DNA from: Convolutriloba macropyga
Lineage: Eukaryota
Direction of reading: 5' to 3'
NCBI RefSeq assembly: GCF_964194025.1
Contig: NC_134473.1
Coordinates: 52,886,001-52,950,000 of the forward strand
DNA: 64,000 bases
A program made the position numbers and the translations under genes. The notes beneath the pieces were generated by a model. It worked only from the letters and a program-made list of their open reading frames with translations, did no database searches and had not been told where the DNA came from. The stretch's first letter is position 1. Each line of letters opens with the position of its first letter. Shown here in pieces: positions 25,401 to 60,700 of the stretch.

Positions 25401-25513
25401 AAGATTTTCCACTATCGCAACATAGTTATCGTCAGGAGAGTCGTATTCAGAATTAAACTGTTCATTGTAGTTTATGTAATTTACGTTTTGATTCTCTGGA
25501 TTTATGTTTTGCT

Positions 25514-26594: not shown

Positions 26595-27180
26595 GTCGTG
26601 AAGAAATCGTCTTCTGTAGTTGAGTGGTTTTGCTGAGCGTTTTTAAGATTTTTTTTGTTACGAAATTATTAGTGATTTCGCATAGCATTTCCACTACTAA
26701 ATTTGTATATAGTAGATTAAACTTTCTAAGCCTAAATTTGAAGTGGTATTTGCGTCGCAAATACAGCGTTAACTTTTAGACTGGCCTTTTGCTTGGCGAA
26801 ACTAGAGTTATATCTGATATTCTGAGTTGAGTGATTCGCGGAGCGAAATTAGAAATAAAGAGAGTCAACTGAAAATTGAATTTGGATTCAAGAGAATGAA
26901 TAATTAGGAACAGCAGAAATTTGATCAGCAATTTGATCATATCATATCACAGCTAAAAATGGAAATTTGCGGTAAAACAAAATTAGCAGACATTATGAAC
27001 AGACAATTAAATCACAATGTTAAATAAAAAAATTTAGCAGGCATGAACGAGGAAGATTTGTTCTTCAAATCAAGATTGAACAAAATGAAATAATTGACTA
27101 AACTGAACTAAACTAAAGATTAAATGAAATTAGTGGTTTTAGCAGTACAAATGACAATGACCATTGTATACTATATCACA
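26594..27180 (-). repeat. 5' LTR of gypsy element
   Basis: tgtcgtgaagaaatcgtc... matches 22700 onward; candidate outer end ...atcaca at 27180. Confidence 0.88.
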
Positions 27181-32739: not shown

Positions 32740-34440
32740 GCGAAAAAAATTCCTGAAACGGAATAGAAAAATTAGCCAGCAGAGCTAAGAGTCTATGTTT
32801 GCAAGGTGAATTTGGTTGCGCAGCAAAAATCCTGTAAAATAAGAGATTTGCGCCTAATAGCAGAGCTACGCTGAACGCACTAGCAGAGCTACATCCCAAA
32901 GAAGCGCCTCCAAGCTGGCACTAACCTGATAATGTTATGTTGCAACAAGTGCGTATCAATTTAGCAATAACATAGTTTTTGAACAATTGGAAAATTTCAG
33001 CAAGTAAACTGCAGCTGGTCCTTCCGAGATGTATCCAGAGCATCTATTGCACGAAGTACAGTGTACTGCTCCCGACCACTCCTAATCCGCCCTTAAAGTT
33101 TGTAAATACTGGAAGCAGGGCTAAACTCCCTTCTTTTGTTTCAAAAACCATCTGCAGCGCATTGCTCACAACTCTATCCAAAAAGAAAGGAAGAGTACGT
33201 CCAATAGCTGTCAGTGAAAATCTGAGGCGACTCATTGCTAAATGTTTAGTGAAAGCAGCAAAATCAGAAGCAATTGAGTTGTTCGATTACATTCAGCTAG
33301 GGGTTGGAATCAGCGGAGGTGCGGAAGCAATCATCCACTCTGCGAAAATCACATACGAAAAGATTCTCAACAACGACTCTAAGAAAGGAGTGCTTCAGAT
33401 TGATTTTCGAAATGCATTTAATTCGGTTAAGCGTTCACACTCACTGCAAGCAGCATGCGATTTCATACCAGGTATTGCAGCCTTCACAAGTTTTTGCTAC
33501 TCTCAGCATGTTCCACTACTGTATAATAACACCAGTCTTCAACGTGAGTCGGGTGTTCAAATAAGGGGATCCCTGGGTCCACTTCTCTTTTTGTTGACGT
33601 TATGGCCTGTTATAGTAAAAATAATAGACGCGGTTCCAAATCTTACCCGGCACAATTGGTATTTGGACAATGGTTTCGCTGCAGGCTCTGAAGATCAAAT
33701 CTGAACAACGCTTGATATCTTAGCCAATGAAGGTCCATAAGGGGTCTGTATTTGAGGAAGGACAAGTGCGAACTCTGGTCAATCGTAGATCTACCCGCAG
33801 TTGATCGAGAAGTTGCAGGAAATACGGGCAATGGTTTTGAAGTACTGGGTGCCGCTGTCTGATCACCAGAATTTGTTTCTTCTTGCTTGCAGAAACGTGT
33901 TCAAAAGGTTGTGTCGCTCTTGGAGAATTTGAGTTATCTGGATAATCCTCGATGTGCTCGCGTCATACTTCGTTATTGCCGAAGGACACCAAAATTAGTC
34001 TACTCTCTACGCACTAACACGCCGACAAGGGATTTTGTCGATGTTTTAAAAGTCTTTGATTCCAGCCAACGGGGTGCGTTAGATCAAATATTAGGTACTG
34101 TCACCTGTGACAGTGCATGGAAGCAGTGCATGCCAATATACTTTTCTGCCCTCGGAGTGCGGCAGAGAAGTTCAGTTACGCGATTGAAGCAGCCGAAGAG
34201 CGAAAGTATGCGCAAAACGAAAATAGCTGCTCTGAGGAAGGAATTTTGTTTTTTCCTCTTGCTGTTGAGTCAATGAGCGGTTTGTCAGTTACACTCAAGA
34301 AAACGTTAAAGCGCATAGCTCTGTTAGCTAACAGCAGGAATAATCAGTCGCAAGGACATGCTATCGCCTTTGATGGGTTGGCTCAGTCGGTTTCCGGTGT
34401 GATTGTACGAGGATCGGCTGAAATGTTGCTTGACGAGCCC
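32740..34440 (+). mobile_element. Decayed CRE-clade non-LTR retrotransposon (RT plus partial restriction-like endonuclease)
   Basis: GEFGCAAKIL...LAELHP, RPIAVSENLRRLIAK, QLGVGISGGAEAIIH, QIDFRNAFNSV, SGVQ.(R)GSLGPLLF, WYLDNG; C-terminal AEERKY...FFPLAVESMSG; an internal deletion near 34165 removes the CCHC/PD part. Confidence 0.85.
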
Positions 34441-34566
34441 CGTAACCCCGACTTTTGCAAATGTTTTTTGGCAAATTCTTTTTTGTGCAATCATTTTGAA
34501 CTCCAAGAAGACTGGAGTCAATTAAGAGGGGTCAACCAATGAGAGACCAATTAAGAGGGTCAACCA

Positions 34567-42588: not shown

Positions 42589-44069
42589 TTATAGAAAAGT
42601 GTGGAGAGAATGAAACGAAATTATATCCAATTTGTCCGGTTTGCGAAGTTCTTTTCTCAAGTTGAATATCAATTGCTGAACGAGAGAAATTCTCGTGCTG
42701 TTCAAAATTTTTTCAGTGTTCCAAGGTTATCAATAACCTGCTATATCTATGTTTAGGCAGATATTTATGTAATTTCAATTTTAAATTGCTCAAAGTAAAC
42801 AAGAGTTTCTCAGTTTTAAATATGGCCTCTTGTTAAATCGAAATGTAGCATTTCAAACTTTCGCAAAATTTTCATACCAGTCTTTTTTTGAGTTTATATG
42901 AAACACTGGATTTTTAGGAGATTCTACTAGTCAGAGTTGAGCACAGATTTTCTCTCGGTTTAACGAACAGGAAGAAATGTGTAACTGAATCAAATTTATT
43001 CACGATTTGAGCTCCGAATTTTTTACTTTTCAAACAATGGGAAATCAAATTTTGTGTAGGTTTAGGTTGTTTCTAATGTACAGTGAATACTATACTTTTG
43101 TAAACAAAAACTATAATACACTTTGCTAATTGTGTTGACTCGAGAGTCTTCCTTCTTATCAAAATTACTTGGTTCAATCGTGTATCTACTTTTAGTTTAT
43201 ATATAACTGTTGTGGGTGTGATTACCTCTGGAAACAATAAAACACCACAATTCTACTAGTCGTTTCTTGTAGTGTACTGTTTGCGTCTCTTTTGTTCTTT
43301 TCAATTCAAAAACTGCCTTGTATTGCGTGTTATCACTTTTTTCAGATCTGTGCTCTTATTTTGATAAAGTTTAAAGTCAAGTTTTCACTTAAAGTACAGT
43401 GAAAAAACGATGTTTGAACGAAATTTCGTTTCATCGATGCTGGCGATTTGTTCATAGGCTGCAATTTGTTTCCTTTTCGTACTGCTTTTTCGAGATTTAA
43501 AATTTTTTCTAAATAGTTCGCAAGTCTTCTTTCAATCAATTTGGAGTTTAGTTTTTGTTTGCGTTGGTTAATGGAAACTTTTATATTGGAATTGAGGTCT
43601 TGCCTTCTTCTGTTTTTCCTAGATTCTGATCACGTAATTGGCTTTTTCTCATGTCAATGAGAAGTTGAATTGGTAATGTCATTTTAATCGCGCTGAAGTT
43701 GTATAAACAGGCAAGCAGTTTCAGGTTTTTAAAACTGCTTTTGAATCTGAACCAGAAAACAGCGTTTAAACAAGTTCTATGCTTTGCAGAGAACATTTTT
43801 GTTCATGCGAGGCATTTTGTTTTTTACCGTTCCTTTGAGTTTCTAAGGACTTTTGGGTCTTTTCCATTATAGCTCCCGACCAGCTTAGTGGTCAGAGAAC
43901 CTATAGTCCCCAATTATGGTAAATATACGGATCTAATCTTTTTCGCCCCCACCCTCAGTGTTTTTATGATCCCCAGTTATATGTTGTTATATAGCACGTT
44001 ACTATGTAAGAAAAGTGCACGTGCGCTTGAGGGTCATAAAAAATTATGCTCACTAAGCTGGGCGGGGGG

Positions 44070-45250
44070 AGTAGTAATAGTTAAGCAAGACAGGGGGGTA
44101 AAAAGAAGTACCTATGTATTACCATTAGGTATAGCCCATTTTCCCTCAAATCCCAAAGATGTACCTCACAGCAAGATACCCACGCTGTTCACAAGAGGGG
44201 GATTAGGAAGTTAATCCCTTAAGATTAAATTAGTAAGGCCATTTACTCATTCCCATATTGCACTTTAATAATGTAAATTTCCAAAGACGTACCTCACAGC
44301 AAGATACCCAAGCTAATCTCTCAAAGGGGATTAGTTAGGTAATGTTTTGATATTAAATTAGATAGGGTGACTCATTTACACTTACGTACGGTTTACGTGA
44401 TTTTCAAAAGTGTTCCACACAGCATGATACCCAAGCTGTTCGCATGATACCCAAGCTGTTCACACGAAAGGGATTAGCAAGACAGTGCCTTAACAACAAA
44501 TTAGTAAGGACATTGACCCCCTACCATATTACAGTTTACAAATGTAAATTTCCAAAGATGTACCTCCTCACAGCATGATACCCAAGCTGTTTACACGAAG
44601 GGGACTAGCAAGATAATCCTTCAATAATAATCTAGGATGACTAATTTACAGTTACGTACGACTTTTCAAAAATTTACCACACAGCATGACACCCAAGCTG
44701 TTCACACTAACGGGATTAGTAAAATAGTGTCTTAACAACAAATTAATAAGGTCATTTACCCCCTACCATATTACACTTTACTAATGTCAATTTCCAAAGA
44801 CGTACCTCACAGCTTGATACCCCAGCTTTTCTAACGAAAGTGATTAGCAGGATAATGTTTTAATAATAAATTAGGTAGGATGACTCATTTACAGTTACGT
44901 ACGTTAGACGTGATTTTCAAAAATGTACCTCACAGTATGATACCCACGCTGTTCTCACGAAAGGGATTAGCAAGATAGTGCCTTAACAAATTAGTAAGGA
45001 CATTGACCCCTACCATATTACAGTTTACTAATGTAAATTTCCAAAGATGTACCTCCTCACAGCATGATACCCAAGCTGTTTACACGAAGGGGACTAGCAA
45101 GATAATCCTTCAATAATAATTTAGGATGACTAATTTACAGTTACGTACGACTTTTCAAAAATTTACCTCACAGCATGATACCCAAGCTGTTCACACTAAC
45201 GGGATTAGTAAAATAGTGTCTTAACAACAAATTAATAAGGTCATTTACCC
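44070..45250 (+). repeat. Left TIR plus array of nine ~125-bp units
   Basis: Core tacctcacagcatgatacccaagctgttcacacgaaagggattagcaagat at ~44161, 44290, 44415, 44565, 44680, 44803, 44925, 45050 and 45165; higher-order 489-bp duplication (44522 vs 45011). Confidence 0.93.
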
Positions 45251-45548
45251 ACGCATTCCCATATTAACAAAAAAGTACATTATTTTTAATTTTTGGTTTT
45301 TACAGATTTTTTAACAATTTTTAAATCAATTTTTTGTTTAAAATAGAGTTTTACTGTGTCGTTTTAAACTGAATTCCAATTTTCCTATTTCAGAAAAAGT
45401 TGTATTATTGTTTTGAAAATGTTCATTTCTTATTTTTTTTAGCCAATCAACTAATCTGTCAGATCTGATTTTGGAATGTTGATGCTGAAAAACATTATTG
45501 ACTCATTTTGTCTTTTGTCTTGGTTGAGCATTAGTAGCCTAAAGAGAA

Positions 45549-46175
45549 ATGCAAAATACTCCAATTCTTCCTTTACTTCCTTCTACATCTTTTCTCTCTA
45601 CACTGCATTCAGGTTTAGATTACGTTCCTATCACGGAAGAATCAATATTTAAAACGGTAGTAACCGAGAACAATTTGGAATTATCGTTTGAGGTGGATTG
45701 CACTAGAGTAACAATTAAAACATAGACTACTAGCTTGACACTTCCGAAGGATTTGTGGAGAACTTTAGAGGCAGCTAGACATCATAACCTCCAGCTAGCC
45801 GAAGAAAAAGTCAACAATTCATTGCTTTCTCTCCAAACTTATTTTCAAACCATTGAAAGAATTCCAAAAGAACAAGGGTTTCACCCGTTGAAAGACAGCA
45901 AAGGTATTATGTTCCCGTACTCTCGTGACATAAATCACTACGGTGTTTGGTGGGTAGAAGACATGTTCTCCAAGCATGCTGACTCATTTTCTAAAAAACC
46001 AGAAGCCTTCATTCTGCCCGATTTCAAAGATCTTATTCTTCCTCCGATTCAAGAAACTGACAATGAAGAGAGTCAATCATCTCATCAAAATATTCCTTTC
46101 TCGAAATGTAGGTGTTCTCCAATAGAACAGAGAGATAACTCGCTTGTGTTCGATGCTAAAATTTCCCTCACGTGA
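45549..46175 (+). pseudogene. Polinton hypothetical ORF (~208 codons, one in-frame TAG)
   Basis: ATG at 45549 is in frame with ORF 45735-46175 and separated from it by a single TAG at ~45723. Confidence 0.6.
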
Positions 46176-46483
46176 CTAAATATAGAAAACTCATCTTTGA
46201 CATAAAGTGATGTTACTAAAAAAAGAAGTGACATAACTATTACGTCATGATGCAAGCTCTATTTTCGTTGGTTACGAATTATTTTATAAGATCTCATTGG
46301 ATACGAAGCTTATTTTTGCTACTGTTCTCGTTCTTACTTAAATTTCATTGGTTCAAGATTTCAAGCCCTTTCTTGAAGACAATTCATTCATTTGTTTCTT
46401 TCCACTCTCAATATTCAGTTACACTTGTATACCCAACTTTTCTGCTTTAAAAATTTTACATACTTCACATTCTCACTTCACAG

Positions 46484-47269
46484 ATGGATCAAAGCTCTGT
46501 CTCTCCTAACTTCAAAAAACCATTCTCCTTTCCCTTCCGCAAATGAGATTACAAAGGAAAACCAGTTTTTCCCTCACCACAGTTGGAATACCACAATGAG
46601 AGCATGTTTTCTCTATTTAAAGACAACAACGATAAAAAAGACAACACCGGCCCAAAACCAAATGAGGAGCACGATGGAAGAAACAACTGTTGGTCCTTTC
46701 AAGAATACGGGAACCAGAAGTTTCAAATCAGCATTCCAGAGGAAACCGTCAACACAAACTCTAACTGGACTCACTTGAAAGTATTTCGCGAAAACGTGGA
46801 AAGTGAATATGTTCTGCATCAATTTCTGATGCTATCGGCCAGAGAATTGAAGCTTGTTATTGAAAAGATACCTGAGATGATAAAAGAAGCACTACTGTTC
46901 GAACCTACTGTAGGTACTGCGAAGCTGGTGATTGACGACACTGTGTTCCAACCAACTGATATTGAGGAAAAAGCAAAATTTGACGTGTTCTGGGAGGTGA
47001 GTGAGACTGCTCGACGGAAGGTGTGTGTGACTAGAATATTTTTCCAAGATGATCCGAATTTATGTTATTTCACAATCAAGCTGTTCACACGAGGGACTGA
47101 AAAGGACAGTTTTAGAAGGAAATGCTTTCTTTCGGTCAGAATTGGTGAGATGGAGAAAGTACACAAAATGAGTGATGAAATTATTTCAGTGCTGAACAAA
47201 GTCAAAAATCAAAAAAAGATCGCAAAGTGCATAACTGTAATTGTAATTTTTTTATATTGTATGTTGTGA
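46484..47269 (+). pseudogene. Polinton ORF with two internal repeats resembling PC4/PUR/Whirly ssDNA-binding folds (one in-frame TGA)
   Basis: ATG at 46484 is in frame with ORF 46583-47269; two ~70-aa segments share a W..E...K.h.h...h.hKhF........h.h...Eh..h pattern; the fold call is inference. Confidence 0.55.
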
Positions 47270-47322
47270 TGTTTGTATTTAATCACTTTTTAAAATTTAA
47301 TGTTCCGGTACAGTTGCTAGAT

Positions 47323-47721
47323 ATGAACATTGAGGAAATTGTAGCGTTGGAGAAAGAAATCAGTAAACTTTTTGTTGGAAATACAAAACGCAAAAATTAT
47401 TTTTTGGCTGTCTGTCGAAGCTTGGACAAAAGTGTAGATCTGGATAAAATCAACAGAGAAACTCCGTTTGGGGGACTAATAGGAGTTGGTGATTCAAAGT
47501 TAGAAAAACTTCTCAATTGGTCAAAAAATTTTCGATTTCATGCTACATTTCATGATGCCGCAGGATGCCTGAAAACAAATCTAAATATCGGCCCTGGATA
47601 TTGTTACATGGTTCCATTTTTTAATTCTAGATTGAATTTTTGTTTCTTGGGACATATGACAGGTTTTGCATATTGTCGTTTTTTGAAAATGTCACCACGA
47701 TTCCAATTAATCAAAGTGTGA
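47323..47721 (+). CDS. Putative phospholipase A2-like HD protein
   Basis: Intact ~132-aa ORF with PFGGLIGVGD (Gly loop), HATFHDAAG (HD dyad) and GPGYCY; adintoviruses are known to carry PLA2-like genes. Confidence 0.5.
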   Translation: MNIEEIVALEKEISKLFVGNTKRKNYFLAVCRSLDKSVDLDKINRETPFGGLIGVGDSKLEKLLNWSKNFRFHATFHDAAGCLKTNLNIGPGYCYMVPFFNSRLNFCFLGHMTGFAYCRFLKMSPRFQLIKV

Positions 47722-47763
47722 ATCATTATTACCTAAAGACGAACAAAAATCAGTTGCTCTCTA

Positions 47764-48018
47764 ATGACAGATCATCTCAATCACGCATCTGACTTTATTT
47801 TTGATAATAACCAGCAAGAAAGACCTCCTTGGAAAATCTGTGGTCGCACCTGCTCTCGAACAGCTTTTCTGTCAATATTTCAGTGCTTAGTTGTATTAGT
47901 ACTGCTTCTGTTTTCAATTATTAATCTTATTTTTGCTAGAACTTGTGACGAACGAACAGTTTGGATTGCTATTCTTTCAAGTGCCGTTGGTTATATACTT
48001 CCGAATCCCAGAACATAA
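47764..48018 (+). CDS. Small two-transmembrane-helix Polinton protein
   Basis: Intact 84-aa ORF: WKICG, hydrophobic IFQCLVVLVLLLFSIINL and VWIAILSSAVGYILPNP; lies directly upstream of the ATPase. Confidence 0.7.
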   Translation: MTDHLNHASDFIFDNNQQERPPWKICGRTCSRTAFLSIFQCLVVLVLLLFSIINLIFARTCDERTVWIAILSSAVGYILPNPRT

Positions 48019-48019
48019 A

Positions 48020-48688
48020 ATGAACAAAATCATTTCAACAAACGAACGAATTTTGATGTATCTTGTTGGTCCTTCCGGATCTGGAAAAACTGTCTTTATC
48101 AATGATATGCTGCGAATGAGAACTTTTCAACCATCATTTGATCGAGTTTTATACTTTTATAAGCACTTTCAGCCAATTTACGACACAATGGTGCAATCAA
48201 TTGCAGACATAGAATTCATTCAGGGCGTCGACTTTGATTTAATCGACAACTTACCCGCTGAAGGCACTAAATATTTACTTATATTCGATGATTCATTTGA
48301 CATTTTTTCCAAGTCGGAAAAATTCAACGGAATTGCGACAGTTGGTAGACATCGAAACCTAAATTGTGTATATATCAAGCATAATCTCTTCCACAAAAAC
48401 AAAAAAGGACGTGATGCCGAGCTGCAGACTACTCACATTGTTTTGTTCAAATCACCTAGAGATGTGCAGCAAATTGATATCTTGGGAAGACAGCTAGGTC
48501 TCGGAAGACAAATAAAACAGTGGTATGATGTTGCAACACAAGAACCATATGCTCATCTTATGATTGATTTGAGACCATCTACACCTGATTTGTTGAGATA
48601 CTGTTCAAATGTAACATCATTTCGCTCAGAATTCTTCGTACCGAACAGTCGTGCTCGTTTTACTGATATTAATGATAAACCCACATAA
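48020..48688 (+). CDS. A32/FtsK-HerA family DNA packaging ATPase
   Basis: Walker A GPSGSGKT, Walker B LLIFDD, GRH arginine motif, HNLF, VLFKSPRD; stop may be slightly premature. Confidence 0.93.
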   Translation: MNKIISTNERILMYLVGPSGSGKTVFINDMLRMRTFQPSFDRVLYFYKHFQPIYDTMVQSIADIEFIQGVDFDLIDNLPAEGTKYLLIFDDSFDIFSKSEKFNGIATVGRHRNLNCVYIKHNLFHKNKKGRDAELQTTHIVLFKSPRDVQQIDILGRQLGLGRQIKQWYDVATQEPYAHLMIDLRPSTPDLLRYCSNVTSFRSEFFVPNSRARFTDINDKPT

Positions 48689-48779
48689 CTATTATAATCT
48701 GAAGCTCTTTCGGAATCTCAGCTTTTCTTCTAAATTGTCCTAAAGAGTTCATCAGATTTCTCTGATGAACTCTTTAGGA

Positions 48780-49497
48780 ACAGATCGTAATATTTTTACT
48801 GACTTGCGATCTACTCGATTATTCATCAGAGGAAGGGTTATTAAAGGAGATCGAACAGGTTTAGACAAAGACGAAGAAACATTATTGGTAAACAATGCTC
48901 TTCATTCTCTTTTCTCTAATTGTGAAGTCTATCTAAACAATGAACAAGTTCACAGTGCTTCGAGAACCTGCCATATTTTACTATTATGAAGAAGTTCCAA
49001 AGACGTTTATTTTTCCCGCAGGACAGAACCAGTTTATACAAGAAAAAATATTTTCGAACAAACCAATTCGAATGATTGATATTGATATGAATCTGAATAA
49101 TGAGTTCAGTGGAACATACAACACGAATTCGTTCCATTTTCGTAAATTTGGTCTTCGAAAAGTTAAAATTGTGCGTGGGAATCAAACTATAGTCAACTTG
49201 AAAACAGAAAATCACGTGAGAGCTTATATTGAAACAATGAAAGCACTCAATTTTGATGATGACGGTCCTAACATTCAATACAAGGATTCTGAAAACCATT
49301 TTCATTTATTTTTCGATCTTACTTCCACACAGGAGGCCAATGTCGAAATGCATTTTCCTGATGTAGTTGGAGCAGGAATTCCTTTAGAGCTCTACTTTGC
49401 AAACAATTTGACCAATACTGTAGAATTATTTGTTAGTGGTGAACGTATAAGTTCAATTGCAATTGATAAGGAGGGATCAGTCACCAAAAATGGATAA
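48780..49497 (+). pseudogene. Polinton major capsid protein (double jelly-roll), N-truncated and internally deleted
   Basis: DLRSTRL...VNNALHSLFSNCEVYLNNEQV joined out of frame at ~48958 to the C-terminal half KTFIFPAG...FSGTYNTNSFHF...FDLTS...LELYF...GER.S.I.ID. Confidence 0.85.
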
Positions 49498-49882
49498 TCA
49501 ACAACTCTTACAAGTTGTCAACAGGTTCCCACACCTAAAGTTCAAATACCTCGGTTCCTTCCCTGCAGATCTTCGACCAAAAAATTTACCTACAAAAACG
49601 TTTTGTATAATCAACATCGATCCATCTACTCAACCGGGCTCCCACTGGATTTTGCTTGCGAATAAGAATGGAAAGTTGTTCTACGGTGATTCGATGGGAG
49701 AAGTTTTGGAAAATATGGCATCAGGACAAAAGCAAACTTTGGTTCATTAGTACAGGAGAATCCAAGATTCAGAATTGTGTGGTTTATATGCTACTTATTT
49801 TGCATATGTATTATTTTCCAAAGTCTCATCTAAATATTTAAAAGATTTTTATATTTTGAAGTTCTTTGCTGATGTTTTGTGA
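49490..49882 (+). pseudogene. Adenain-like cysteine maturation protease, copy 1 (in-frame TAG)
   Basis: YLGSFPAD, IINIDPSTQPGSHW (His), YGDSMG (Asp); reading through the TAG at 49748 gives IQDSELCGLY (Gln/Cys). Confidence 0.9.
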
Positions 49883-50350
49883 GTTTTGAAAACGAAAGTC
49901 TTGAACTGTTTCAACAGTAATCCGTAAAATGTTGCAAATGGTTTTCAAAACTTTCTATTGAGGTTTTGTAATTTTGTGTTTAATTAATTGTATGTGTATT
50001 TGTATCTAATTCATTTATTTCAAAAAAAGGTCTTTTGTTGAAAAGAGATTTTGGTAGGAAAACTGAATTAAAAACATAAGTAAAGAGGCGATGTAAGTAT
50101 AAGACTAAGGAAAATGAGTTTTAAATCTAAAGGAGTAGTGTGAATACCATCTTCACAGACTTTACGCTACGGATAAAAATATGACAGTCCTACTTTCTTT
50201 AGTTCGTAGATACGAACTTTCTTGTTGTCAACAACTCTGAACCCACGATTTGTTGAATAAACTCGCTCCTCATTGAACAGAACTTTTCTATACTTGTTTA
50301 GGGAATCCTCAATATTGTTCTTGTTGAGTTCTTTACTTGATAGTTTAACT

Positions 50351-50891
50351 GCTTCGAGAACCTGCCATATTTTACTATTATGAAGAAGTTCCAAAGACGT
50401 TTATTTTTCCCGCAGGACAGAACCAGTTTATACAAGAAAAAATATTTTCAAACAAACCAATTCGAATGATTGATATTGATATGAATCTGAATAATGAGTT
50501 CAGTGGAACATACAACACGAATTCATTCCATTTTCGTAAATTTGGTCTTCGAAAAGTTAAAATTGTGCGTGGGAATCAAACTATAGTCAACTTGAAAACA
50601 GAAAATCACGTGAGAGCTTATGTTGAAACAATGAAAGCACTCAATTTTGATGATGACGGTCCTAACATTCAATACAAGGATTCTGAAAACCATTTTCATT
50701 TATTTTTCGATCTTACTTCCACACAGGAGGCCAATGTCGAAATGCATTTTCCTGATGTAGTTGGAGCAGGAATTCGTTTAGAGCTCTACTTTGCTAACAA
50801 TTTGACCAATACTGTAGAATTATTTGTTAGTGGTGAACGTATAAGTTCAATTGCAATTGATAAGGAGGGATCAGTCACCAAAAATGGATAA
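50351..50891 (+). pseudogene. Major capsid protein C-terminal half, copy 2
   Basis: Duplicate of 48957-49497; retains IRLELYF. Confidence 0.85.
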
Positions 50892-51276
50892 TCAACAACT
50901 CTTACAAGTTGTCAACAGGTTCCCACACCTAAAGTTCAAATACCTCGGTTCCTTCCCTGCAGATCGTCGACCAAAAAATTTACCTACAAAAACGTTTTGT
51001 ATAATCAACATCGATCCATCTACTCAACCGGGCTCCCACTGGATTTTGCTTGCGAATAAGAATGGAAAGTTGTTCTACGGTGATTCGATGGGAGAATTTT
51101 TGGAAAATATGGCATCAGGACAAAAGCAAACTTTGGTTCATTAGTACAGGAGAATCCAAGATTCAGAATTGTGTTGTTTTTATGCTACTTATTTTGCATA
51201 TGTATTATTTTCCAAAGTCTCATCTAAATATTTAAAAGATTTTTATATTTTGAAGTTCTTTGCTGATGTTTTGTGA
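50884..51276 (+). pseudogene. Cysteine protease, copy 2
   Basis: Duplicate with the same TAG; ELCGLY has become ELCCFY. Confidence 0.88.
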
Positions 51277-51512
51277 GTTTTGAAAACGAAAGTCTTGAAC
51301 TGTTTCAACAGTAATCCGTAAAATGTTGCAAATGGTTTTCAAAACTTTCTATTGAGGTTTTGTAATTTTGTGTTTAATTAATTGTATGTGTAGTTGTATC
51401 TAATTCATTTATTTCAAAAAAGGTCTTTTGTTGAAAAGAGATTTTGGTAGGAAAACTGAATTAAAAACATAAGTAAAGAGGCGATGTAAGTATAAGACTA
51501 AGGAAAATGAGT

Positions 51513-54500
51513 TTTAAATCTAAAGGAGTAGTGTGAATACCATCTTCACAGACTTTACGCTACGGATAAAAATATGACAGTCCTACTTTCTTTAGTTCGT
51601 AGATACGAACTTTCTTGTTGTCAACAACTCTGAACCCACGATTTGTTGAATAAACTCGCTCCTCATTGAACAGAACTTTTCTATACTTGTTTAGGGAATC
51701 CTCAATATTGTTCTTGTTGAGTCCTTTACTTGATAGTTTAACTGTGTCTGTTTCCTCATCGTAACAGCAGTACGTCTTTGAACAAAGAACAATCATTTTA
51801 GAGCACCGAAATTCTTCCTTAAAATGTCCAGGAATTCTCTTGTCAAAGGCAGCATGTTTTCTACAACATTCTCGTGGGAAGAAATTGCTGCTGGAGTTTG
51901 CTGCAAAGTTATCATTGCAGTCGCTCTGTCTCATCCAATACCACACTGATCGCATTTCTGGTCGAATGATGTCGTCAATTTTTTCCTCGCTAAGGGCCAT
52001 GTAGAGACTGTCGGTATCCATTTCAATGAGTTCGTACTTGTTCTTATCAAAAAAAAGGGGAGAAGAAGTTGTATTTAAGTTGTAACATGGTGAGTTTAGC
52101 GTACTGGAGGATGAAGAAGCCTACAACGATTGGTTCTTTATGATCGATACGCGACCTGCTCATTTCTACTTCATATATCTGCTCTGGTAGCTCATTCATA
52201 GTCTTGAAAAACCTATTGTTGATAAATTTGTCCACCTGTGATCCTTTCACGTACTGGGTATTCGTATGTCGACTACGGTCTATGATCTGATATCCATACG
52301 AACTGTTTCCTATCAGCTTCATTGTCTCCGCAACGACTGTTGACTCCTTATTCTGGTCTCCTTCGCGTCGGGCGTCGACAACATTCTGAACAAATGTCTC
52401 AAAGCAGCGCCGGGGAGTGTATTGGAGAAACCAAAAGACGTCTTTCAGGATCACACCTTTTTCTAGATTAAAAAAAAACAAAAGTGGTGTAATAACTGGT
52501 CCTCGTTCTAGCTTGAAACTGGAAATGAGCATTTTTCTGGGTCTGGATAGTAATTTGTTGCGTTCTGCAAACTCTTTCATATGGTCCCCAATATCATCTT
52601 GTCCAACTTCACAGTTCTTGAAAATTGGAGGAAAGTCTTTAAAGTAATGATACTTATCCTCCGGAACTTCAAGACTACAATCGACAACACCAAACAGTTC
52701 TCCACGTTTAATTTTCTCAATGAGCGAGTTTTTGTTCGTCGATGGTTGGAAGGGATAATTTGACTTGAGAAAGTCTTCAACTCAATTTGTGTTTTCGCTC
52801 CTCCACTTCTTCCATTGACTCTTCCAGATCTCTTCAACATTCAACCCCAATCCCTTCAGGTACTCTCTTCTATCATTGTCACGTTCTCTCCGCTTCAATC
52901 CTCTTTCAATGTCCTCGAAGAGAAGCGGTTTTTCCTCTTGACAGGGACAAAATGAAAGAAGCAACCCATCGCTTCAAAAACCGTGTTGCAATGGTTACAA
53001 AATCCATCAACTAAATAAGGACCGAGCTTCTTTTGTTTCTTGTGTGTGAACTGGGTTTGTATTTTACAATTGGGGTGAACCTGTTGGAAGTAGTCCATGA
53101 CCTGCTGTTCAAAGTAGCTTCTCCAGTTCCTGTTTGGATGAAATTTTTCAGTCTGTTCATTGTACTCCCACTTTGAATAGGGCCCTGTTGGCATCTGTTT
53201 TGTCATGGAAAAAGGGTAAAGTTGACTTTCATCAATGCCGACTATAGATTTGCAAACATTTTCAGACTCTCTGATCTTTGTTTCCCCGACTTTTGCATAC
53301 CTTGTAAAAATAATTGAGGGTTCCTCTGTTAGCCACTTTTGAATGTAGTTGTCGTAGTCTTTATCCTTCTCACAAAACGGAAAGAAAGCTGCATCTGTTT
53401 ACGAATGAAGGAACCTGTTTGCCAAGTTGGTAAAAGTGTACCCCAATTTTAACATGTCTACTTGTCTTGAGTGGTAAAAACTGATCATTTTGTTCATAGC
53501 CTCAAGTGTAGGTTCGACTTCTTTGTTATTGTACCACCTGACGAAGTCGCGAAACGTCTGCATGCCTTCTCTTTTCCAATTTTTTGGCAGCTCCAAGTAA
53601 TTTTCTTTAGCATTTTGTGGAATTTTCTTGAGTCGCATCTTCTTCAAAATTGTTTCCTATTGCATTCCACTGTTTTTCAATTGCACAAACTTATCGTACT
53701 CGACCGACAGAACGTTGTGGTTCTTCAACTTGCTCCAGAAACTATCTATTGGAGGTAGATGGGATTCATTCAACTTCTCAATACTGTCGAACCATTCATA
53801 GGGGAAGAAACCTTTTTCTTCACTTGCTCCATAGGCTTTCAGGAAGTTATTCAAAGTTGTCGCTCCTCCCAGGAAGTTTAAAATGTCCAGAAATTGTAGA
53901 CCAAGAAAAATCATGCCAATATTTTTATTCCCCATTCGAATCACTTTAGGAATAACGTTTTTTCTATTAAGAGGTGATGCAGAAGATACTCTTTGATTAA
54001 GTTCAAATCGTACCTTGAACTGTTGAACCCAAACACAGGAATGGTGCTGTAAAAGTTCTTAAAATATTGTCTCAATTTTGACAACATCTTGAGCTTGCAT
54101 CTCAGTCTCTGAACTTCAAGGTCTTCGTCTTCCTCGCCGTCAGGTTCCGCCTCGTTTTCAATTAAGTCTTCCGCTCCGGTGGGTACCTGCCTGTCTTTCA
54201 CTGGAACCAATTGTTGAACAGACCAATATTTTTCCTCCAATTGCAAGACGAAATTATTGAGTTTTTCCTTCATTAGAAGTGAGCTTTTTTCTGCTATATT
54301 AGTCAAGCTGGATACAAAATCACGGATTAGTTGAAGCGGATCTTCGTTGCAAATAAAAATTGTCTCGGAAAGCAGATTCGAGGATATTGACACACTAATG
54401 GGAACATGTTTTCCTATCCACGAAGTCAATTCTGTGTTTCTGAGTGTATTGTTGGGGACTGTTATTGACTCGAAATCGAATACGATAAGAATACAAAACA

Positions 54501-55842
54501 ATCTCAACTCCTGCGGAACATTAATATTCAATTCTTCCAAGCGCTCGAAAATAGTTTCTGATAGCTGATAGGCCCCTGAGGGATAGTGGTGTTTTGTTTT
54601 CTCTGAGCAATTCCTCATGTGAACTCCCAAATTATTTGATCTGTCGAAAAAGTGATCGCATACATAGCACCGGAACTTTTTGAGGAATTTGTTAACGTCT
54701 GCTGTCCAGCAGATATGGTTTTCATATCTCAGTAAAGAAGTTGTCCTTGAACGTTTCATCGAGGAGCGACGAGTAAGTTCAGCAAACATATCCGATTGTT
54801 CGTCAAAAAATATGGAGCAAACTTGAATATTTCTGTCAACTAGAGCCTCAAAAACAGGAACATTGTCCTCATGTATTCCTGGAAAGGTTTCGCCATCTCT
54901 CCATGTCGCTGAGAGGAAGGTCTGCATTAACTCCATTGTGTTTTTGCTGTAGATCATTGCTGCCATGTAATTCGTAGGCCAATGCACGGAACATACACAA
55001 ATTGTCTTGGTAAGGTTTGTTTTTGCAGTCAGATACAAAACATTTAACTTTTGGATTCTTGACAAAGGCTGATGGAATAGGTTGTTTAATGCATCCTAGC
55101 GGAACACGACTGAGCCGAAATACAAAGAAAGTGACATTTATAACGCAATAAAACTTCCATTCTGTGTCTGGACGTTGATTGATTAGATTTGGAAAAATTT
55201 CATCTTTTCTCAGCATTGATTTGATAAAATTGAGATCTGAGTCGTCAGAGAGAACCATGGGATTAAAAAATATGGGGTTGTTATCTGCTGTGTAGTAGTA
55301 GCGAAACTGTTCAAGATTTTGCACACTCTGCAGCACGAATCCAAATGAAATATTAATTTTAGTTGAACTGGGTAACTCGTTGTAAACACAATCCAATTTT
55401 TCAATCACGGTTTCATGATTGATCTCCATTATTTTGAAGTTGTGAAATTTCTTTCTGGACAATTCAAGAACCGAGTCTCGCAGAAAGTGTTAAACCGTTT
55501 GAAGTACACTATGAAGAGCGGGAGATTCTCCATAGATAGATAAGTCAACTTCCTCGTAGGTGCTAGGAGTTGAACGCTGGTGACTGTTTCGTTTGTGATG
55601 TAGAAGTTGATAATATGTAGAGAAGGATAAGGGACAGCTGCTACAAGAAAACTTTTTCCTGATAATCAGAGACGGTGCATGTACAGAAGCAATGTGTTTC
55701 TAAAGTTTTGCTTCGCCCGGAAATGACTGTGAGCATTGTGAACATCTTTTTGCGTGAAGCTTCTGATGTCTGCTCATTTGGATTTCATAATAAGCTTATT
55801 GCAGGAAGAACACTGTACCTTTGGGTTAGAATTTCTGAGCAT
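51513..55842 (-). pseudogene. polB: Protein-primed family B DNA polymerase with N-terminal C2H2 fingers and Vsr-like insert (multiple frameshifts and stops)
   Basis: ExoI VFDFES, ExoII GFNSSRYD, QFLD, KGFFPYEW, ExoIII YNNK(E)V, motif A GIDESQLYPFSM...MPTG, motif B KLIGNSSYG, motif C EMDTDSLY, K.Y, C-terminal YP*RKV..DGIHTTPL. Confidence 0.95.
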
Positions 55843-56027
55843 TTTCGCTGAAAATAAAAAGTAAAATGTTAGATTGGAAGTGAGAAAGGAGGAGTAAAAA
55901 CAATTGTTAATATGAAAGTTGCGATGGAAAAAAAATTTGTCAGAAGTTGGAATGATTATTGTACTCCACAGCACTGAATTCTGTAAATCAGAAAAATAAA
56001 ACGGAAATGAAATATCCTTTATCAAAT

Positions 56028-56290
56028 ATGACGTAATTATGACGACATAATGACGTAATTGCGACGACAAAATGACGTAACTATGACGACATAATAACCA
56101 AATTGTGACGACAGAAGGACGTAATTATAAAGACATAAAAACGTAATTGTGACGACATAATGACGTAATTGTGACGACATAATGACGTAATTGTGACGAC
56201 AAAATGCGTAATTATGATGACAGAATTACGTAATTTTGACGACAAAATGACGTCATTTTGACGACACTATGACGTAATTGTGTCGTGCTA
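56028..56290. repeat. Minisatellite of ~12 x 22 bp carrying CRE/ATF-like motifs, upstream of polB
   Basis: Unit atgacgtaattgtgacgaca(t/a)a; one perfect TGACGTCA at ~56248. Confidence 0.9.
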
Positions 56291-56427
56291 TGAGGTTATT
56301 GTGTTGTTATGATTAATTTTGACTATAAAATAGTGACTAATTGTCTAATCATGTGAGAATTATATGATTTTCAATGATTTTTTTAATTCAAAAATTGGGT
56401 ATATATTCCTTCCTCAAAAACATGTTT

Positions 56428-57045
56428 TAATAAAAGTAAACTTACCAGTTTCTTTTTTGGATTTAAAGGTGAAGTGAAGTGTTGTATTATCTACTATAGG
56501 GGGAAGTTTTGGCTGGCTAAAATGTTCCAGTTTAAATACAGGAACAACGGAAGATTTCTTTTAATTAAATTTATTTGCTTACCCGCTTCAACACTGCAAG
56601 TGTTCAACTTGAAACTCTTCTTGCTGCAAGGAGAAAGAAACAAAGGTTATATGAAAAAATGATAAGTTAAACTAGAATTTGGATCAACTGATTTTTAGAA
56701 GTTGTTTGAAATAATGAATAGGAGTAGTGGTTTGGGAATAGGAGTAGTGGCTTAATAAAAGCAAATTTACCAGTTTGTTTTTGGATTTAGAAGCGAAGTG
56801 AAGTGTTGCAATATCTACTATTTGGGGATATTTTGGCTGACTATAATGGTCCAGTTTAAATACAGGAACAAAAGAAAATTTCTATTACTTGAAATTGTTT
56901 GCTTACCCGTTTCAACACTGCAACTTGAAACTCCTCTTGCTGCAAGGAGAAAGAAACAAAGACTATCTGAAAAAATGATAAATTATACGAAAATTTTGAC
57001 CAACTGATTTTTAGAAGTTGATTGAAATAATGAATAGGAGTATTG
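56428..57045. repeat. Diverged tandem duplication, ~325-bp period
   Basis: gaagtgaagtgttg..a.tatctacta and caactgatttttagaagttg.ttgaaataatgaataggagta each occur twice. Confidence 0.9.
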
Positions 57046-57075
57046 GCTAATATATGAGCAAGCCAAACTAATTTG

Positions 57076-57731
57076 TTATTGAGGGATTATCTTGCTAATC
57101 CCATTCGTGTGAACAGCGTGGGTATCATGCTTTGAGGTACGTTTTTGGAAATTTACATTATTAAAGTGTAAAATGGTAGGGTGTTAATGACCTTAATGAT
57201 TTGTTGTTAAGACACTGTCTTGCTAATCCCTTTAGTGTGAACAGCTTGGGTGTCATGCTGTGAGGTACGTCTTTGGAAATTTACATTAGTAAACTGTAAT
57301 ATGGTAGGGGGTCAATGTCCTTACTAATTTGTTAAGGCACTGTCTTGCAATCCCCTTCGTGTGAACAGCTTGGGTATCATGCTGTGAGGTACACTTTTGA
57401 AAATCACGTAAACCGAACGTAAGTGTAAATGAGTCACCCTATCTAATTTAATATTAAAACATTACCTAACTAATCCCCTTTGAGAGAACAGCTTGGTGTC
57501 ATGCTGTGAGGTACGTCTTTGGAAATTTACAATATTAAAGTGCAATATGGCAATGAGTAATTGACCTAATTTAATTTTAAGGGATTAACTTGCTAATCCC
57601 CCTCGTGTGAACAGCGTGGGTATCAAGCTGTGAGGTACATCTTTGGGATTTGTGGGAAAATGGGCTATACCTAATGTTAATACATAGGTACTTCCTTTTA
57701 CACCCCCCAGCTCTGCTCACGTTATACGACT
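57076..57731 (-). repeat. Right TIR with five ~125-bp units
   Basis: Reverse complement matches 44070 onward, e.g. gaagtacctatgtatta.cattaggtatagcccattttccc.caaatcccaaagatgtacctcacagc. Confidence 0.93.
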
Positions 57732-60700
57732 GGGGGGGTCGGGAAACAGATCAGATCCAAATATACCATCATGGGCGCTATAATTTCATGGGGGCTATAC
57801 AAGCCAAGACTCGGCCCTTTTTCCAAGGGATTTTCAACGTCGACAGTAGTCATTTTGTGGACTACTTTTTGTTTGCTCAGTGAATATAATATGCCTTGAG
57901 TTGTCCAGGCCTTGAGTTGTTCAATTCCACTCAAAAATGGTGTTTACATGCACTGATTAATTAGTTTGATTAAAGACATACAGCCAGTGTAATCGGAAAA
58001 TAGTGAAGCAGAGCATGACAAAATCTTCGGTTTTTTCTAGAGTCTTGCAGCTATGTTTATGGTAGTGAGTTTTTGCACGAACTGAATACTCGCAACAAAA
58101 CCAAATTATTCAACATTTGCACGCACGGATAAAACCGGGCAAACCATTTTGCTATAAAGTATATATCGAAGCATACAAAAAACACTTTTATCCAGACTTT
58201 GGCTGGCTCAAATTTTCTTTGAAGCTGAAGTTGATTGTGCGTCAAAATTTGGTCTAAAATTTGTCCACGAGACATCAAAAACAGTGCTCAATGATATGGT
58301 CTGTCCTACAAATATCAAAACCCTTGCGTAACTTGATTGTTTTAGATTATAATGTCACAGGTGCTTAATGGGAAACAGTTTTCTTTTATTTTATAATAGC
58401 CGATTTATTTTATTTTATAATTTTATTTTCTAATAACCGAACTATTGTGGCATTTGAAGTTATAAATCGTAAGTTCATCTGATTGAGAGTCATTTATGCC
58501 AATTTGAAAAGTCGCAGTGGGACATGAGATTCTCTATTAAAACACCCGTTTCTCGAGAAACTTCCCATTTTTATTTGTGGTGGGACCAAATATGAACAAA
58601 CATGGAAAAGAATTCAAACCACTTTTTTCTGCTCATACAAACTGTATTTAAACTGGCGTGAACATATATGAACGGTCCATAGATAAACAAAAAACATTCA
58701 CATTGCAGCACAAACAATCAAAATTTGAATCAATCGACTGGGTTGCGAGACAGTCAGTTCCATCGCAAGGTACAACTAGGATACTGAAATTAATCCGTCT
58801 GAATAATTATTTAGTTTCGACATCCCTTGCGTTCATTTTTTCTCGATGCCTCTTTGCAGCAAAAGTCAACTTGCTGGCTCCTGCATAACTTTCATCATTT
58901 TGTTTTGAAAAATCACATTATAGCCTTTTTCATCTCCCCGCTCATTGAATGAGATGAAAACAAGTTTTAACGCAAAATTTTTGACGCCTGTCCCTTTTCA
59001 ATGAATGATAAATTTTAAAGAAACTTTGCTTTAGCTTTATTAGGGGACTTTTTATGAAACCTCTGGACAAAATGTGGTTCGGCTTTCAATGCCAAATTTG
59101 AACAAATCAGTTGAAAACAACAGGCAGGCCATGGGGAAAAACATTATTGTCTACTAGACGTTTTTTTCTGGAGAACTATTTAAGTCTTTTGCACGGCGAT
59201 ATGATTGAAGTTTTTTTTATCAAACGAATATCTCATCTGCAAATGAAAATACAAACTTCGAAAAAATTATGACTCAGATTCAGCCATTCTATGGATTCTC
59301 TTTCAACCAACGCTGAAAATTCAACACTGAAAAGTTTTTCACTCAGGAAAAAGGAAAAAGAATGCAGTATTAAAAAACTATAAAAAAAACTTCTATTAGA
59401 TTAGAGTTGACTAGCAGTAGAATTTATGTGACTAGAGAAAGAAAACTAAAAACGGACACATGCTGGAAAAAAGATTGAAAAAAGAAGTTTTATGCTCTTA
59501 ATTTTTTCAAAAAAAAATAAATTTTTTTCTATTAGTTAAAAGTATATTGGGTAAAATTCAAGGAACATAACAAGAAAAGGAGGATGACAAGGTTACTAAT
59601 CTTTTATTTTTCTTTTTCACATTTATTGTATGCATTTGTATCCAATTTTTTCTACTAAATTCTTTTTTTTTCTTCCTTGTTAAGAGAAGGAATTAGTTTT
59701 GACCGGGATCGTAACACGTGTTAAAACTGATGCATCTGTGGCAATCAACAACAAAACATTTACTTCTAAAAAATTATCTCAATAGCAAATATATCTCTTA
59801 TAGACATTTTCTTTTAAATAAACATCGCTAACTGTGATATCTTGTGTATATAAAATGAATATAAATTATCCCAGCAGAAGCTCGACAAAGTTTCTTGTTT
59901 TTATTGTGTTTGTGGACAAATGTTTCTTGTTCCCCAAAGTGGTATTTAACTTTTAATGATTTCAATTGTGGTTATTTTTTGTAAACCAATTGGCGTTTGT
60001 TCATGCTATTTTGTAGAACAGTCTGAGATTTGTTATGCCCAGATGAGCGTCAGAAATGGTAAAATTGTATGCGCAGACGGATGAATCATTAAGTAGAAAA
60101 ATTCAGGTTGTAAATTTCAAAGTCAGACCTGATCAGAATAATGGAAATAGTTCAAAACAGTTCTGCAATTTTTAATATTTCAGAGCTGATATTCAAGGCG
60201 AACTTGGCCCGGGAAGACTGTCTTGTTTTCTACGCTTTTGTTAGGTTAGCTGAAGCTAAATTTTTGTATGAAACAGATATTTTAGTCTTCCCGCAATAAT
60301 CTAGTTGAATTGTCTGTAAATATTGCTCTTGCCATTTAAATCTATAATTTGGAATGATCAATTTGTTCATAAATTACTCAAAATATTCTTTAAAACTCAA
60401 TTCAAAAAGTTTTTATTTTTAAATATTTTCTCTTTTTCTGGCTCAATCTCTACATTTCTTTGATAGCCTAACAATCCCATCTATCTGCTTTCAAAAAAAC
60501 CACTGGAAAATATCCTCTGCAAAGAGTTAATACAAATTATTTTGCAGTCAAAATTGAACTGAAAATAAGGAGACGCCGTTCTTTCTTTTGTTCTTTTGTT
60601 GATTTCCTTTATTTGCTGTTAGCATCACAGAAGTTTTGAGCACAAAAAAATGCCTTGTTTTCCCTTAATTTAAGTTTCAAAGAACAATTAAAAATCTGCA

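What the first reader, a model, noticed from the sequence alone, without database searches (positions are those of the whole stretch)
55575..55842. Three C2H2 zinc fingers at the N-terminus of the protein-primed polymerase, hidden from the ORF track
Repairing one frameshift (~55778) and reading through two stops gives MLRNSNPKVQ-CSSC-NKLIMKS.MSR-HQKLH-AKR-CSQC-SQSFPGEAKL*K-HIASVH-APSLIIRKKFS-CSSC-PLSFSTYYQLLH-HKRNSH, continuing in frame into ORF 54869-55462. A fourth finger (CYVC...HMRNC) precedes the exonuclease. Inference: a sequence-specific DNA-binding head on the terminal-protein/polymerase could recognise the iterated TIR units, an iteron-like origin recognition system for a linear protein-primed replicon.
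Basis: partly seen in the sequence, partly recalled or inferred. Interest (0 to 1): 0.72.

Follow-up and report, generated by a model that had tools for sequence, protein, structure and literature searches.

The report
Zinc fingers reading Polinton genome ends
A broken virus-like transposon carries a DNA polymerase that starts with zinc fingers, and in intact relatives those fingers' predicted DNA targets are repeated right beside each element's own ends, suggesting a self-encoded way of recognising its replication origin.

Summary
Observation confirmed. The fingers are the decayed start of a Polinton-type protein-primed polymerase (ZnFx3 - terminal protein - vOTU - ZnF - exonuclease - polymerase) in a 13.7-kb integrase-less element with TIRs and a 6-bp target duplication. 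The fusion is real and common: 56 of 70 informative relatives and 34 of 38 intact genes have in-frame fingers. The scan noted a similar fusion before on other DNA. New here: in relatives with DNA, the standard finger code predicts hexamers iterated 20-190 bp inside the ends (GAGGAG, GCTGTG exact; GCGCAG, GATTAG 5 of 6). Two elements 97% identical in polymerase differ in three helix code residues and in three matching iteron bases; that prediction was made before seeing the DNA. Global permutation tests are mixed (p 0.0009-0.25, not blind). All good matches lie in a sister clade. This copy's fingers have atypical linkers, no exact TIR match, and only a weak match to the 22-bp array (p=0.10). 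Best reading: finger-tipped pre-terminal protein that binds subterminal iterons to load the polymerase; well supported for relatives, unproven for this lineage. Not found in the papers searched.

The parts
44064..44069 (.). left copy of 6-bp target-site duplication GGGGGG
44070..45260 (+). left TIR, begins AGTAGT, array of ~111-128-bp units
47903..48688 (+). packaging ATPase (Pox_A32 E 4e-9)
48937..49850 (+). C-terminal remnant of putative major capsid protein and broken adenain-like protease; first copy of a ~1393-bp duplication
50349..51195 (+). second copy of capsid remnant and protease remnant
51500..55842 (-). decayed protein-primed PolB gene, broken by several stops and frameshifts
55754..55812 (-). 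C2H2 finger 1, split by a frameshift near 55780
55679..55744 (-). C2H2 finger 2 with an in-frame stop
55580..55645 (-). C2H2 finger 3 (TP-proximal, aromatic helix, probably structural)
55110..55462 (-). terminal-protein (TP/D1) domain; candidate priming Thr in loop at 55177-55163
55091..55105 (-). conserved P-[IL]-G between TP and vOTU, candidate cleavage site (inferred)
54712..55006 (-). vOTU protease with catalytic Cys (55006-54995) and His (54726-54712) motifs; interrupted by a frameshift
54607..54669 (-). fourth finger (C2HC) between vOTU and exonuclease
52997..53014 (-). core of VSR/DUF559-like nuclease insertion in the palm
55848..56445 (-). candidate 5'-UTR intron (GTAAGT ... TTTTCAG), untested
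56023..56282 (.). 22-bp minisatellite, ~11.6 copies, rich in TGACGTAA (bZIP-like) and GACGAC
56427..57046 (.). 324-bp tandem duplication upstream of the polymerase gene
57051..57731 (-). right TIR, begins AGTCGT on the minus strand, ~128-bp units
57732..57737 (.). right copy of target-site duplication GGGGGG

Best explanation
The fingers are the N-terminal extension of the pre-terminal-protein part of a Polinton-type pPolB polyprotein (ZnF array - TP - vOTU - ZnF - Exo - Pol). Shown: fusion, domain order, conserved priming-loop Ser/Thr and vOTU dyad. Shown by comparison in relatives: the first two fingers' code residues predict hexamers iterated just inside the element's own ends. Inferred: the fingers bind those iterons and so bring the TP-polymerase precursor to its cognate origin next to the (AGT)n tip; vOTU then cuts after the conserved Gly, leaving fingers with TP on the 5' end; the TP-proximal finger is structural. 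This gives element-specific, re-programmable origin recognition. The window copy is a dead example from a lineage whose fingers have drifted from the canonical tandem geometry, so its own target is unidentified.
For: Fusion: 56 of 70 representatives with >=70 aa upstream; 34 of 38 intact 5'-closed genes, 26 of 28 clusters at 90%; 3 of the 4 exceptions fit one same-position GT-AG intron. Model of natural relative P0002: pLDDT 88.6, three finger folds, 128-246 aligns with Y-polymerase little fingers (Z 4.5-4.8), 254-386 with OTUs (Z 8.2). Ser/Thr 68 of 70, Gly 66 of 70, Cys 66 of 69, His 47 of 52. First fingers: Arg+6 34 of 44, Asn+3 19 of 44. Iterons: L023 GAGGAG x8, L029/L031 GCTGTG x5/x6 (exact), L028 GCGCAG x2 and L032 GATTAG x5 (5 of 6) within 250 bp of the tip, <=0.41 per 250 bp elsewhere. 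L028 vs L031: 96.9% identical TP-pol, 61% identical fingers, three helix changes match three base changes in the same flanking context. GAG vs GAT contrast ranks the two Arg-1/Asn+3/Arg+6 elements first of 8 (p=1/28), on separate branches. Iterated-hexamer test p 0.0009-0.002 in 3 of 4 settings, wrong-order controls 0.21-0.33. Published helix tables agree.
Against: Window lineage: 0 exact F2F1 matches in either TIR; linkers 3 and 11 aa; finger 1 one residue short. Its clade (L003, L010-L012, L016, L054) shows no convincing match, and L003's iteron is TCACGTGAC, host-factor-like. Tests are mixed: exact p=0.006 but one-mismatch p=0.25; PWM p=0.029/0.11, 0.29/0.54 without the two best elements, while a polymerase-internal control gave 0.08 and 0.037; inward >=2 setting p=0.14. 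Code and tests were fixed after several matches had been seen. SKYSLKR pairs with GAT against the Ser+3 rule. TGEKP-like linkers in only 3 of 89. No binding data; origin role is inferred from position only.
Confidence: 0.6

Rival explanations
1. In this lineage the fingers are a non-specific DNA/chromatin tether or structural cap on TP, like the phi29 TP N-terminal domain; the TIR units and 22-bp array are read by host factors.
For: Non-canonical linkers and spacing; TP-proximal fingers have Arg+6 in only 5 of 36 and aromatics in 19 of 36; no exact TIR match; the 22-bp array has 6 TGACGTAA sites and the same motif recurs at ~46240 upstream of left-arm genes; phi29 TP N-domain binds DNA non-specifically (PMC4974454 passages).
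Against: Finger 1 keeps Asn+3/Arg+6 across the family; the L028/L031 co-variation cannot be explained by non-specific binding.
Confidence: 0.2
2. This lineage's fingers bind the 22-bp array upstream of the polymerase gene (autoregulation or an internal enhancer/origin element), not the TIR.
For: 7 one-mismatch sites for the three-finger pattern in 270 bp, on both strands, versus 1 in each TIR; array sits 190-440 bp upstream of the ATG.
Against: Shuffled units match as well in 10% of trials; array is dominated by bZIP-like sites; array and TIR share fewer k-mers than random windows.
Confidence: 0.12
3. Fingers do bind the subterminal iterons, but for packaging, integration-complex assembly or control of terminal promoters rather than for initiation.
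For: Sequence comparison shows only where sites lie; a QxGG-like motif between last finger and TP in 15 of 30 elements could release the finger array as a separate protein.
Against: Fingers are always on the TP-polymerase precursor; sites begin 20-100 bp from the tip, where auxiliary origins lie in adenovirus (recalled).
Confidence: 0.15

Closest known systems
Polinton/Maverick (adintovirus) pPolB with TP-vOTU-EXO-PALM architecture (Krupovic et al. 2024, PMC11161782)
   Same: TP of little-finger fold with a hydroxyl residue in the alpha2-beta4 loop, active vOTU dyad, TIRs, 6-bp TSD, AGT ends, ATPase.
   Different: An N-terminal C2H2 array and a post-vOTU finger are not mentioned in that text ('zinc' 0 hits); priming candidate here is mostly Thr; this copy lacks an integrase and most of the capsid gene.
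VSR-containing pPolB2 of marine nematode and mollusc Polintons (Jeong et al. 2023, bioRxiv 2023.08.22.554363)
   Same: Nuclease-like insertion in the palm (DUF559/MTES hits in relatives, below cut-off).
   Different: Paper text does not mention N-terminal fingers; clade membership not tested by tree.
Drosophila-associated adintovirus 2 protein A0A7D4VFN9, labelled 'C2H2-type domain-containing protein'
   Same: Top Foldseek match over 517 columns, E 2e-15: a finger on this protein type is already in automatic annotation.
   Different: Position and number of its fingers not seen; its source paper does not mention them.
Adenovirus origin: pTP-Pol recruited by host NFI and Oct-1 (recalled)
   Same: Sequence-specific binding next to the terminal core origin loads a TP-polymerase complex.
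   Different: Here the specificity module would be self-encoded, fused to TP and variable between elements.
phi29 terminal protein N-terminal DNA-binding domain (PMC4974454)
   Same: DNA-binding module N-terminal to the priming domain.
   Different: Helical and non-specific there; C2H2 with code-like specificity here.
Plasmid iteron/Rep initiator systems (recalled)
   Same: Short direct repeats at the origin co-varying with a self-encoded DNA-binding domain.
   Different: Linear protein-primed replicon, zinc-finger reader; analogy, not homology.

Membership tests
Polinton/Maverick (autonomous) | protein-primed PolB | tested here: met
   DNA_pol_B_2 pieces and Exo/Pol motifs; broken in this copy
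Polinton/Maverick (autonomous) | [quoted passage not shown] | tested here: met
Polinton/Maverick (autonomous) | (AGT)2 end motif | tested here: inconclusive
   left AGTAGT, right AGTCGT (motif from PMC8097293)
Polinton/Maverick (autonomous) | rve integrase | tested here: not met
   no tblastn hit in the window from ORFs of the 81 loci, which include integrases; the copy is therefore filed as a defective Polinton derivative, not an autonomous member
Polinton/Maverick (autonomous) | packaging ATPase | tested here: met
   Pox_A32 E 4e-9
Polinton/Maverick (autonomous) | double jelly-roll capsid and adenain protease | tested here: inconclusive
   remnant aligns to a 447-aa ORF of L045 (E 8e-10) whose capsid identity is inferred; Peptidase_C5 E 0.2
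TP-vOTU pPolB (Krupovic 2024) | D1 with little-finger fold | tested here: inconclusive
   Z 4.5-4.8, rmsd 3.1-3.8, 89-96 aligned to three Y-polymerases over 128-246; middling Z
TP-vOTU pPolB (Krupovic 2024) | hydroxyl residue near Pro/Gly in alpha2-beta4 loop | tested here: met
   Thr 49 + Ser 19 of 70
TP-vOTU pPolB (Krupovic 2024) | vOTU fold with Cys/His | tested here: met
   Z 8.2, rmsd 3.6, 116 aligned; Cys 66 of 69, His 47 of 52
Classical tandem DNA-binding C2H2 array (Zif268 type), window lineage | beta-beta-alpha fingers | tested here: met
Classical tandem DNA-binding C2H2 array (Zif268 type), window lineage | TGEKP-type linker and 12-residue spacing | tested here: not met
   linkers 3 and 11 aa, finger 1 spacing 11; met in L030/L032
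Classical tandem DNA-binding C2H2 array (Zif268 type), window lineage | predicted site present in cognate DNA | tested here: inconclusive
   no exact match; one-mismatch matches only
Classical tandem DNA-binding C2H2 array (Zif268 type), window lineage | sequence-specific binding | not testable with these tools
   needs EMSA/SELEX

The most novel reading that the evidence does not exclude
A large branch of animal Polintons/adintoviruses uses a zinc-finger-tipped terminal protein as a programmable origin-recognition module: finger helices and subterminal iterons change together (even by swapping the finger exon between 97%-identical elements), giving each element its own replication specificity, and the window element is a decayed member whose fingers read its TIR units or 22-bp array.
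Probability: 0.45. Interest if true: 0.85.

Novelty: new variant of a known kind. Interest (0 to 1): 0.7.

Why it matters
How Polintons recognise their own ends has no proposed mechanism in the papers read. A C2H2 code on the pre-terminal protein would explain the fast divergence and internal repeats of Polinton TIRs, predict which copies can trans-replicate which, and give a natural library of finger-site pairs. The L028/L031 pair turns this into a simple reciprocal binding test. It also suggests terminal proteins could be given chosen specificities in protein-primed amplification tools.

Tried and rejected
No genome was held for the window. Single-protein locus scans found nothing usable. 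The GTDB scan gave 13 loci, of which 5 candidates (4 of them plus L001) were checked as a held-out set; none had both fingers and a terminus. Foldseek on PDB had no hit at E<=0.001. No RNA holder listed, so the 5'-UTR intron is untested; a crude acceptor regex found 0 of 16 in relatives and also missed the window's own site. A shared motif between 22-bp array and TIR was rejected (fewer shared k-mers than controls). 'Fingers are a separate ORF' was rejected (L055 remains unexplained). A host zinc-finger gene inserted next to the polymerase was rejected because fingers are in-frame across the family. One first strict-regex count was dropped for an HMM-based one. Nine of 35 elements and 18 of 35 were dropped for lacking a codable tandem pair or a terminus.

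Full report
1. Observation. On the minus strand an ATG at 55842 leads to a CxxC at 55812; the reading frame changes near 55780, and the next frame carries the His pair of finger 1, finger 2 (with a stop at 55700-55702), finger 3, a second stop at 55490-55492 and then ORF 54869-55462. Finger 4 lies at 54669-54607 after another frame change, just before ExoI at 54480. Only 5 finger-like motifs occur in six frames of the 64 kb, 3 in this gene. Pfam scores of the X-read-through are below gathering cut-offs; the natural relative P0002 passes.

2. Context. The gene lies in a 13,662-bp element (44070-57731) flanked by GGGGGG on both sides, with AGTAGT/AGTCGT tips and TIRs made of ~128-bp units. It keeps a packaging ATPase, duplicated capsid and protease remnants, and the broken polymerase; no integrase was detected although the related loci used as queries contain them. 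I file it as a defective Polinton derivative. Thousands of contigs from four runs of one organism lay on it, so the family is multi-copy. The host was not identified; an AT-rich animal genome is inferred from the flanks.

3. The fusion is real and common. Of 10 longer homologues, 7 carry fingers in the same ORF as the downstream domain; the other 3 start inside TP. Among the best 150 of 1,113 representatives, 70 have at least 70 residues upstream and 56 of these have 1-6 fingers. Among 81 loci, 38 hold a 5'-closed frame with TP, OTU and C-terminus; 34 have in-frame fingers (26 of 28 clusters at 90%), and 3 of the 4 exceptions fit one same-position GT-AG intron.

4. Anatomy. AlphaFold2 on natural relative P0002 with 70 relatives (pLDDT 88.6, pTM 0.53) gives three finger folds, a domain at 128-246 that aligns with little-finger domains of Pol kappa, Pol IV and Pol eta (Z 4.5-4.8, middling) and an OTU domain at 254-386 (Z 8.2). 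That is the TP-vOTU order of Krupovic et al. 2024 (PMC11161782, sections 5-7 and passages read). The loop where that paper places the linking residue holds Thr or Ser in 68 of 70 rows; the Gly before vOTU is kept in 66 of 70, catalytic Cys in 66 of 69 and His in 47 of 52. If vOTU cuts between TP and itself, as that paper proposes, the fingers stay with the genome-linked TP (inference). The fingers are not equivalent: first fingers have Arg+6 in 34 of 44 and Asn+3 in 19 of 44, TP-proximal fingers have Arg+6 in 5 of 36 and aromatic surface residues in 19 of 36; TGEKP-like linkers are 3 of 89.

5. Do fingers read the ends? In relatives, often yes by prediction. Using recalled code rules (consistent with helix tables in PMC5260015 Table 3 and PMC7317221 Table 1, passages read; PMC11187957 passages gave no triplet table), the site 5'-[F2][F1]-3' was compared with the 250 bp inside AGTAGTA tips. 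L023 (RYDNLQR, RDDNLRR) predicts GAGGAG, found 8 times; L029/L031 (RKDSLNR, LLQDVKR) predict GCTGTG, found 5 and 6 times; L032 predicts GAGTAG and has GATTAG 5 times; L079 predicts NGGGAT and has 3 exact sites plus one near site. The strongest case is L028: its TP-polymerase is 96.9% identical to L031's but its fingers (RVDNLKQ, RRSDLKR) are 61% identical. The prediction GCG-AAG was printed before I saw its end; the two outer iterons read GCGCAG in the same flanks where L031 has GCTGTG, and the third still reads GCTGTG. Three base changes correspond to three code-position changes. In an 8-element two-finger clade, the two elements with Arg-1/Asn+3/Arg+6 in finger 1 have the highest GAG:GAT ratios (p=1/28) and are not sisters; among three SKYSLKR elements the one with Arg+6 in finger 2 has G-initial sites.

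6. Against. Global tests are mixed and were designed after several matches had been seen. Automated regions, 26 of 35 elements: exact p=0.006, one mismatch p=0.25. Rule-defined ends, 17 of 35: PWM p=0.029 and 0.11, 0.29 and 0.54 without L023 and L029; a polymerase-internal control gave 0.08 (0.037 without those two), so p near 0.03 is noise for that test. Iterated hexamers: p=0.002, 0.14, 0.002, 0.0009; without the two best 0.05, 0.57, 0.02, 0.015; wrong-order controls 0.21-0.33. L003, L007, L011, L012, L016, L050, L068, L073 and L075 show weak or no match, and SKYSLKR goes with GAT against the Ser+3 rule. A held-out set could not be obtained. All good matches fall in one clade (100/98); the window's relatives P0005/P0007 fall in the other (midpoint root; 23 loci chosen for having ends or full fingers plus 3 proteins).

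7. The window element itself. The code applied to its close natural relatives gives NAT-G(G/T)C-GAN. The two-finger pattern has 0 exact matches in either TIR; one-mismatch sites include GGGGAT in TIR units (5) and GACGAC/GTCGTC in the 22-bp array (18). The three-finger pattern has 7 one-mismatch sites in the array and 1 in each TIR, but 10% of shuffled units do as well. The array is rich in TGACGTAA, shares fewer k-mers with the TIR than random windows, and lies in a candidate 5'-UTR intron, so a host-bZIP enhancer is at least as likely. With a short finger 1 and 3- and 11-residue linkers the code may not apply. The target of this lineage is open.

8. Mechanism. Most likely (0.6): a finger-tipped pre-TP-polymerase binds short iterons just inside the tip, positions the priming Thr at the (AGT)n end, and after vOTU cleavage the fingers remain on TP. 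Shown: fusion, order, conserved residues, iteron co-variation in a sister clade. Inferred: binding, origin role, cleavage site, and extension to this lineage. Rivals: non-specific tether (0.2), iteron binding for packaging, integration or transcription (0.15), binding to the 22-bp array (0.12).

9. Known or new. A finger on this protein type is in automatic annotation (A0A7D4VFN9) and an earlier scan note saw a four-finger version on other DNA (e1-7369206); I confirmed the fusion here but not that note's intron claim for this copy. Text searches of the passages of PMC11161782, bioRxiv 2023.08.22.554363, PMC8502044, bioRxiv 2024.03.25.586562, PMC8363768, PMC8097293 and PMC3671162 found no mention of N-terminal fingers on pPolB. 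Library searches (listings only) showed no paper on finger-TIR recognition, and the scan index had no such note. Supplements, figures, Repbase reports and subscription journals were not seen and may show the fingers. phi29 comparisons rest on passages of PMC4974454; adenovirus and plasmid-iteron comparisons are recalled.

10. Verdict. Observation confirmed; interpretation partly supported: well supported by natural contrasts in relatives, unproven for this copy. New variant of a known kind; interest 0.7.

Noticed in passing
related loci, linker between last finger and TP (e.g. L010-L012, L043, L051, L056, L062, L073, L075, L079): A Gly-Gly motif, mostly QxGG, occurs in 15 of 30 elements (6 of 57 protein representatives) but not in the window lineage; possibly a protease site that frees the finger array.
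   Followed up: partly
L028:5001-5363, L029:2766-2968, L031:6245-6447: Same-position GT-AG intron separates the finger exon from TP; L028 also appears to have further short introns upstream, and its finger exon is only 61% identical to L031's while the rest is 97% identical, suggesting exon/end swapping.
   Followed up: partly
window 55848-56445 (-): Candidate 5'-UTR intron that would contain the whole 22-bp array; the earlier scan note reports a 5'-UTR intron in a similar gene.
   Followed up: partly
window 48956-51715: ~1393-bp tandem duplication covering capsid remnant, protease and the polymerase 3' end; contigs of other copies diverge near 48764-48779, consistent with an internal deletion of integrase and most capsid genes here.
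   Followed up: partly
window 46180-46260: Single copy of the TGACATAA / TTACGTCAT motif of the 22-bp unit upstream of the left-arm genes; suggests a shared promoter element.
   Followed up: no
window 45726-48018 (+): Four ORFs with no informative Pfam hit and no hit from the related loci; 47179-47721 has an HD..Y pattern recalling viral phospholipase A2 (recalled, untested).
   Followed up: no
L003:806-937, 4993-5199, 18345-18506: Terminal repeats carry iterated TCACGTGAC palindromes, host bHLH/bZIP-like, unrelated to that element's finger predictions.
   Followed up: no
L012:16140-16265: Terminus forms a long near-perfect hairpin with CCAAT boxes.
   Followed up: no
L023, L028, L029/L031, L032 termini: Where finger 1 has Asp at +2 the iteron is mostly followed by G (21 of 24 inward sites), as the cross-strand Asp rule (recalled) predicts; with Phe at +2 it is mostly followed by C.
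   Followed up: partly
L082-L094: Polinton polymerase contigs sit inside bacterial MAGs, several of bivalve symbionts; probably host contamination of the bins.
   Followed up: no
window 4723-5130, 23700-26642, 32976-34542: Decayed reverse-transcriptase elements (LINE-like, Ty3/gypsy-like, another non-LTR type) by inspection of ORFs; labels recalled, not searched.
   Followed up: no
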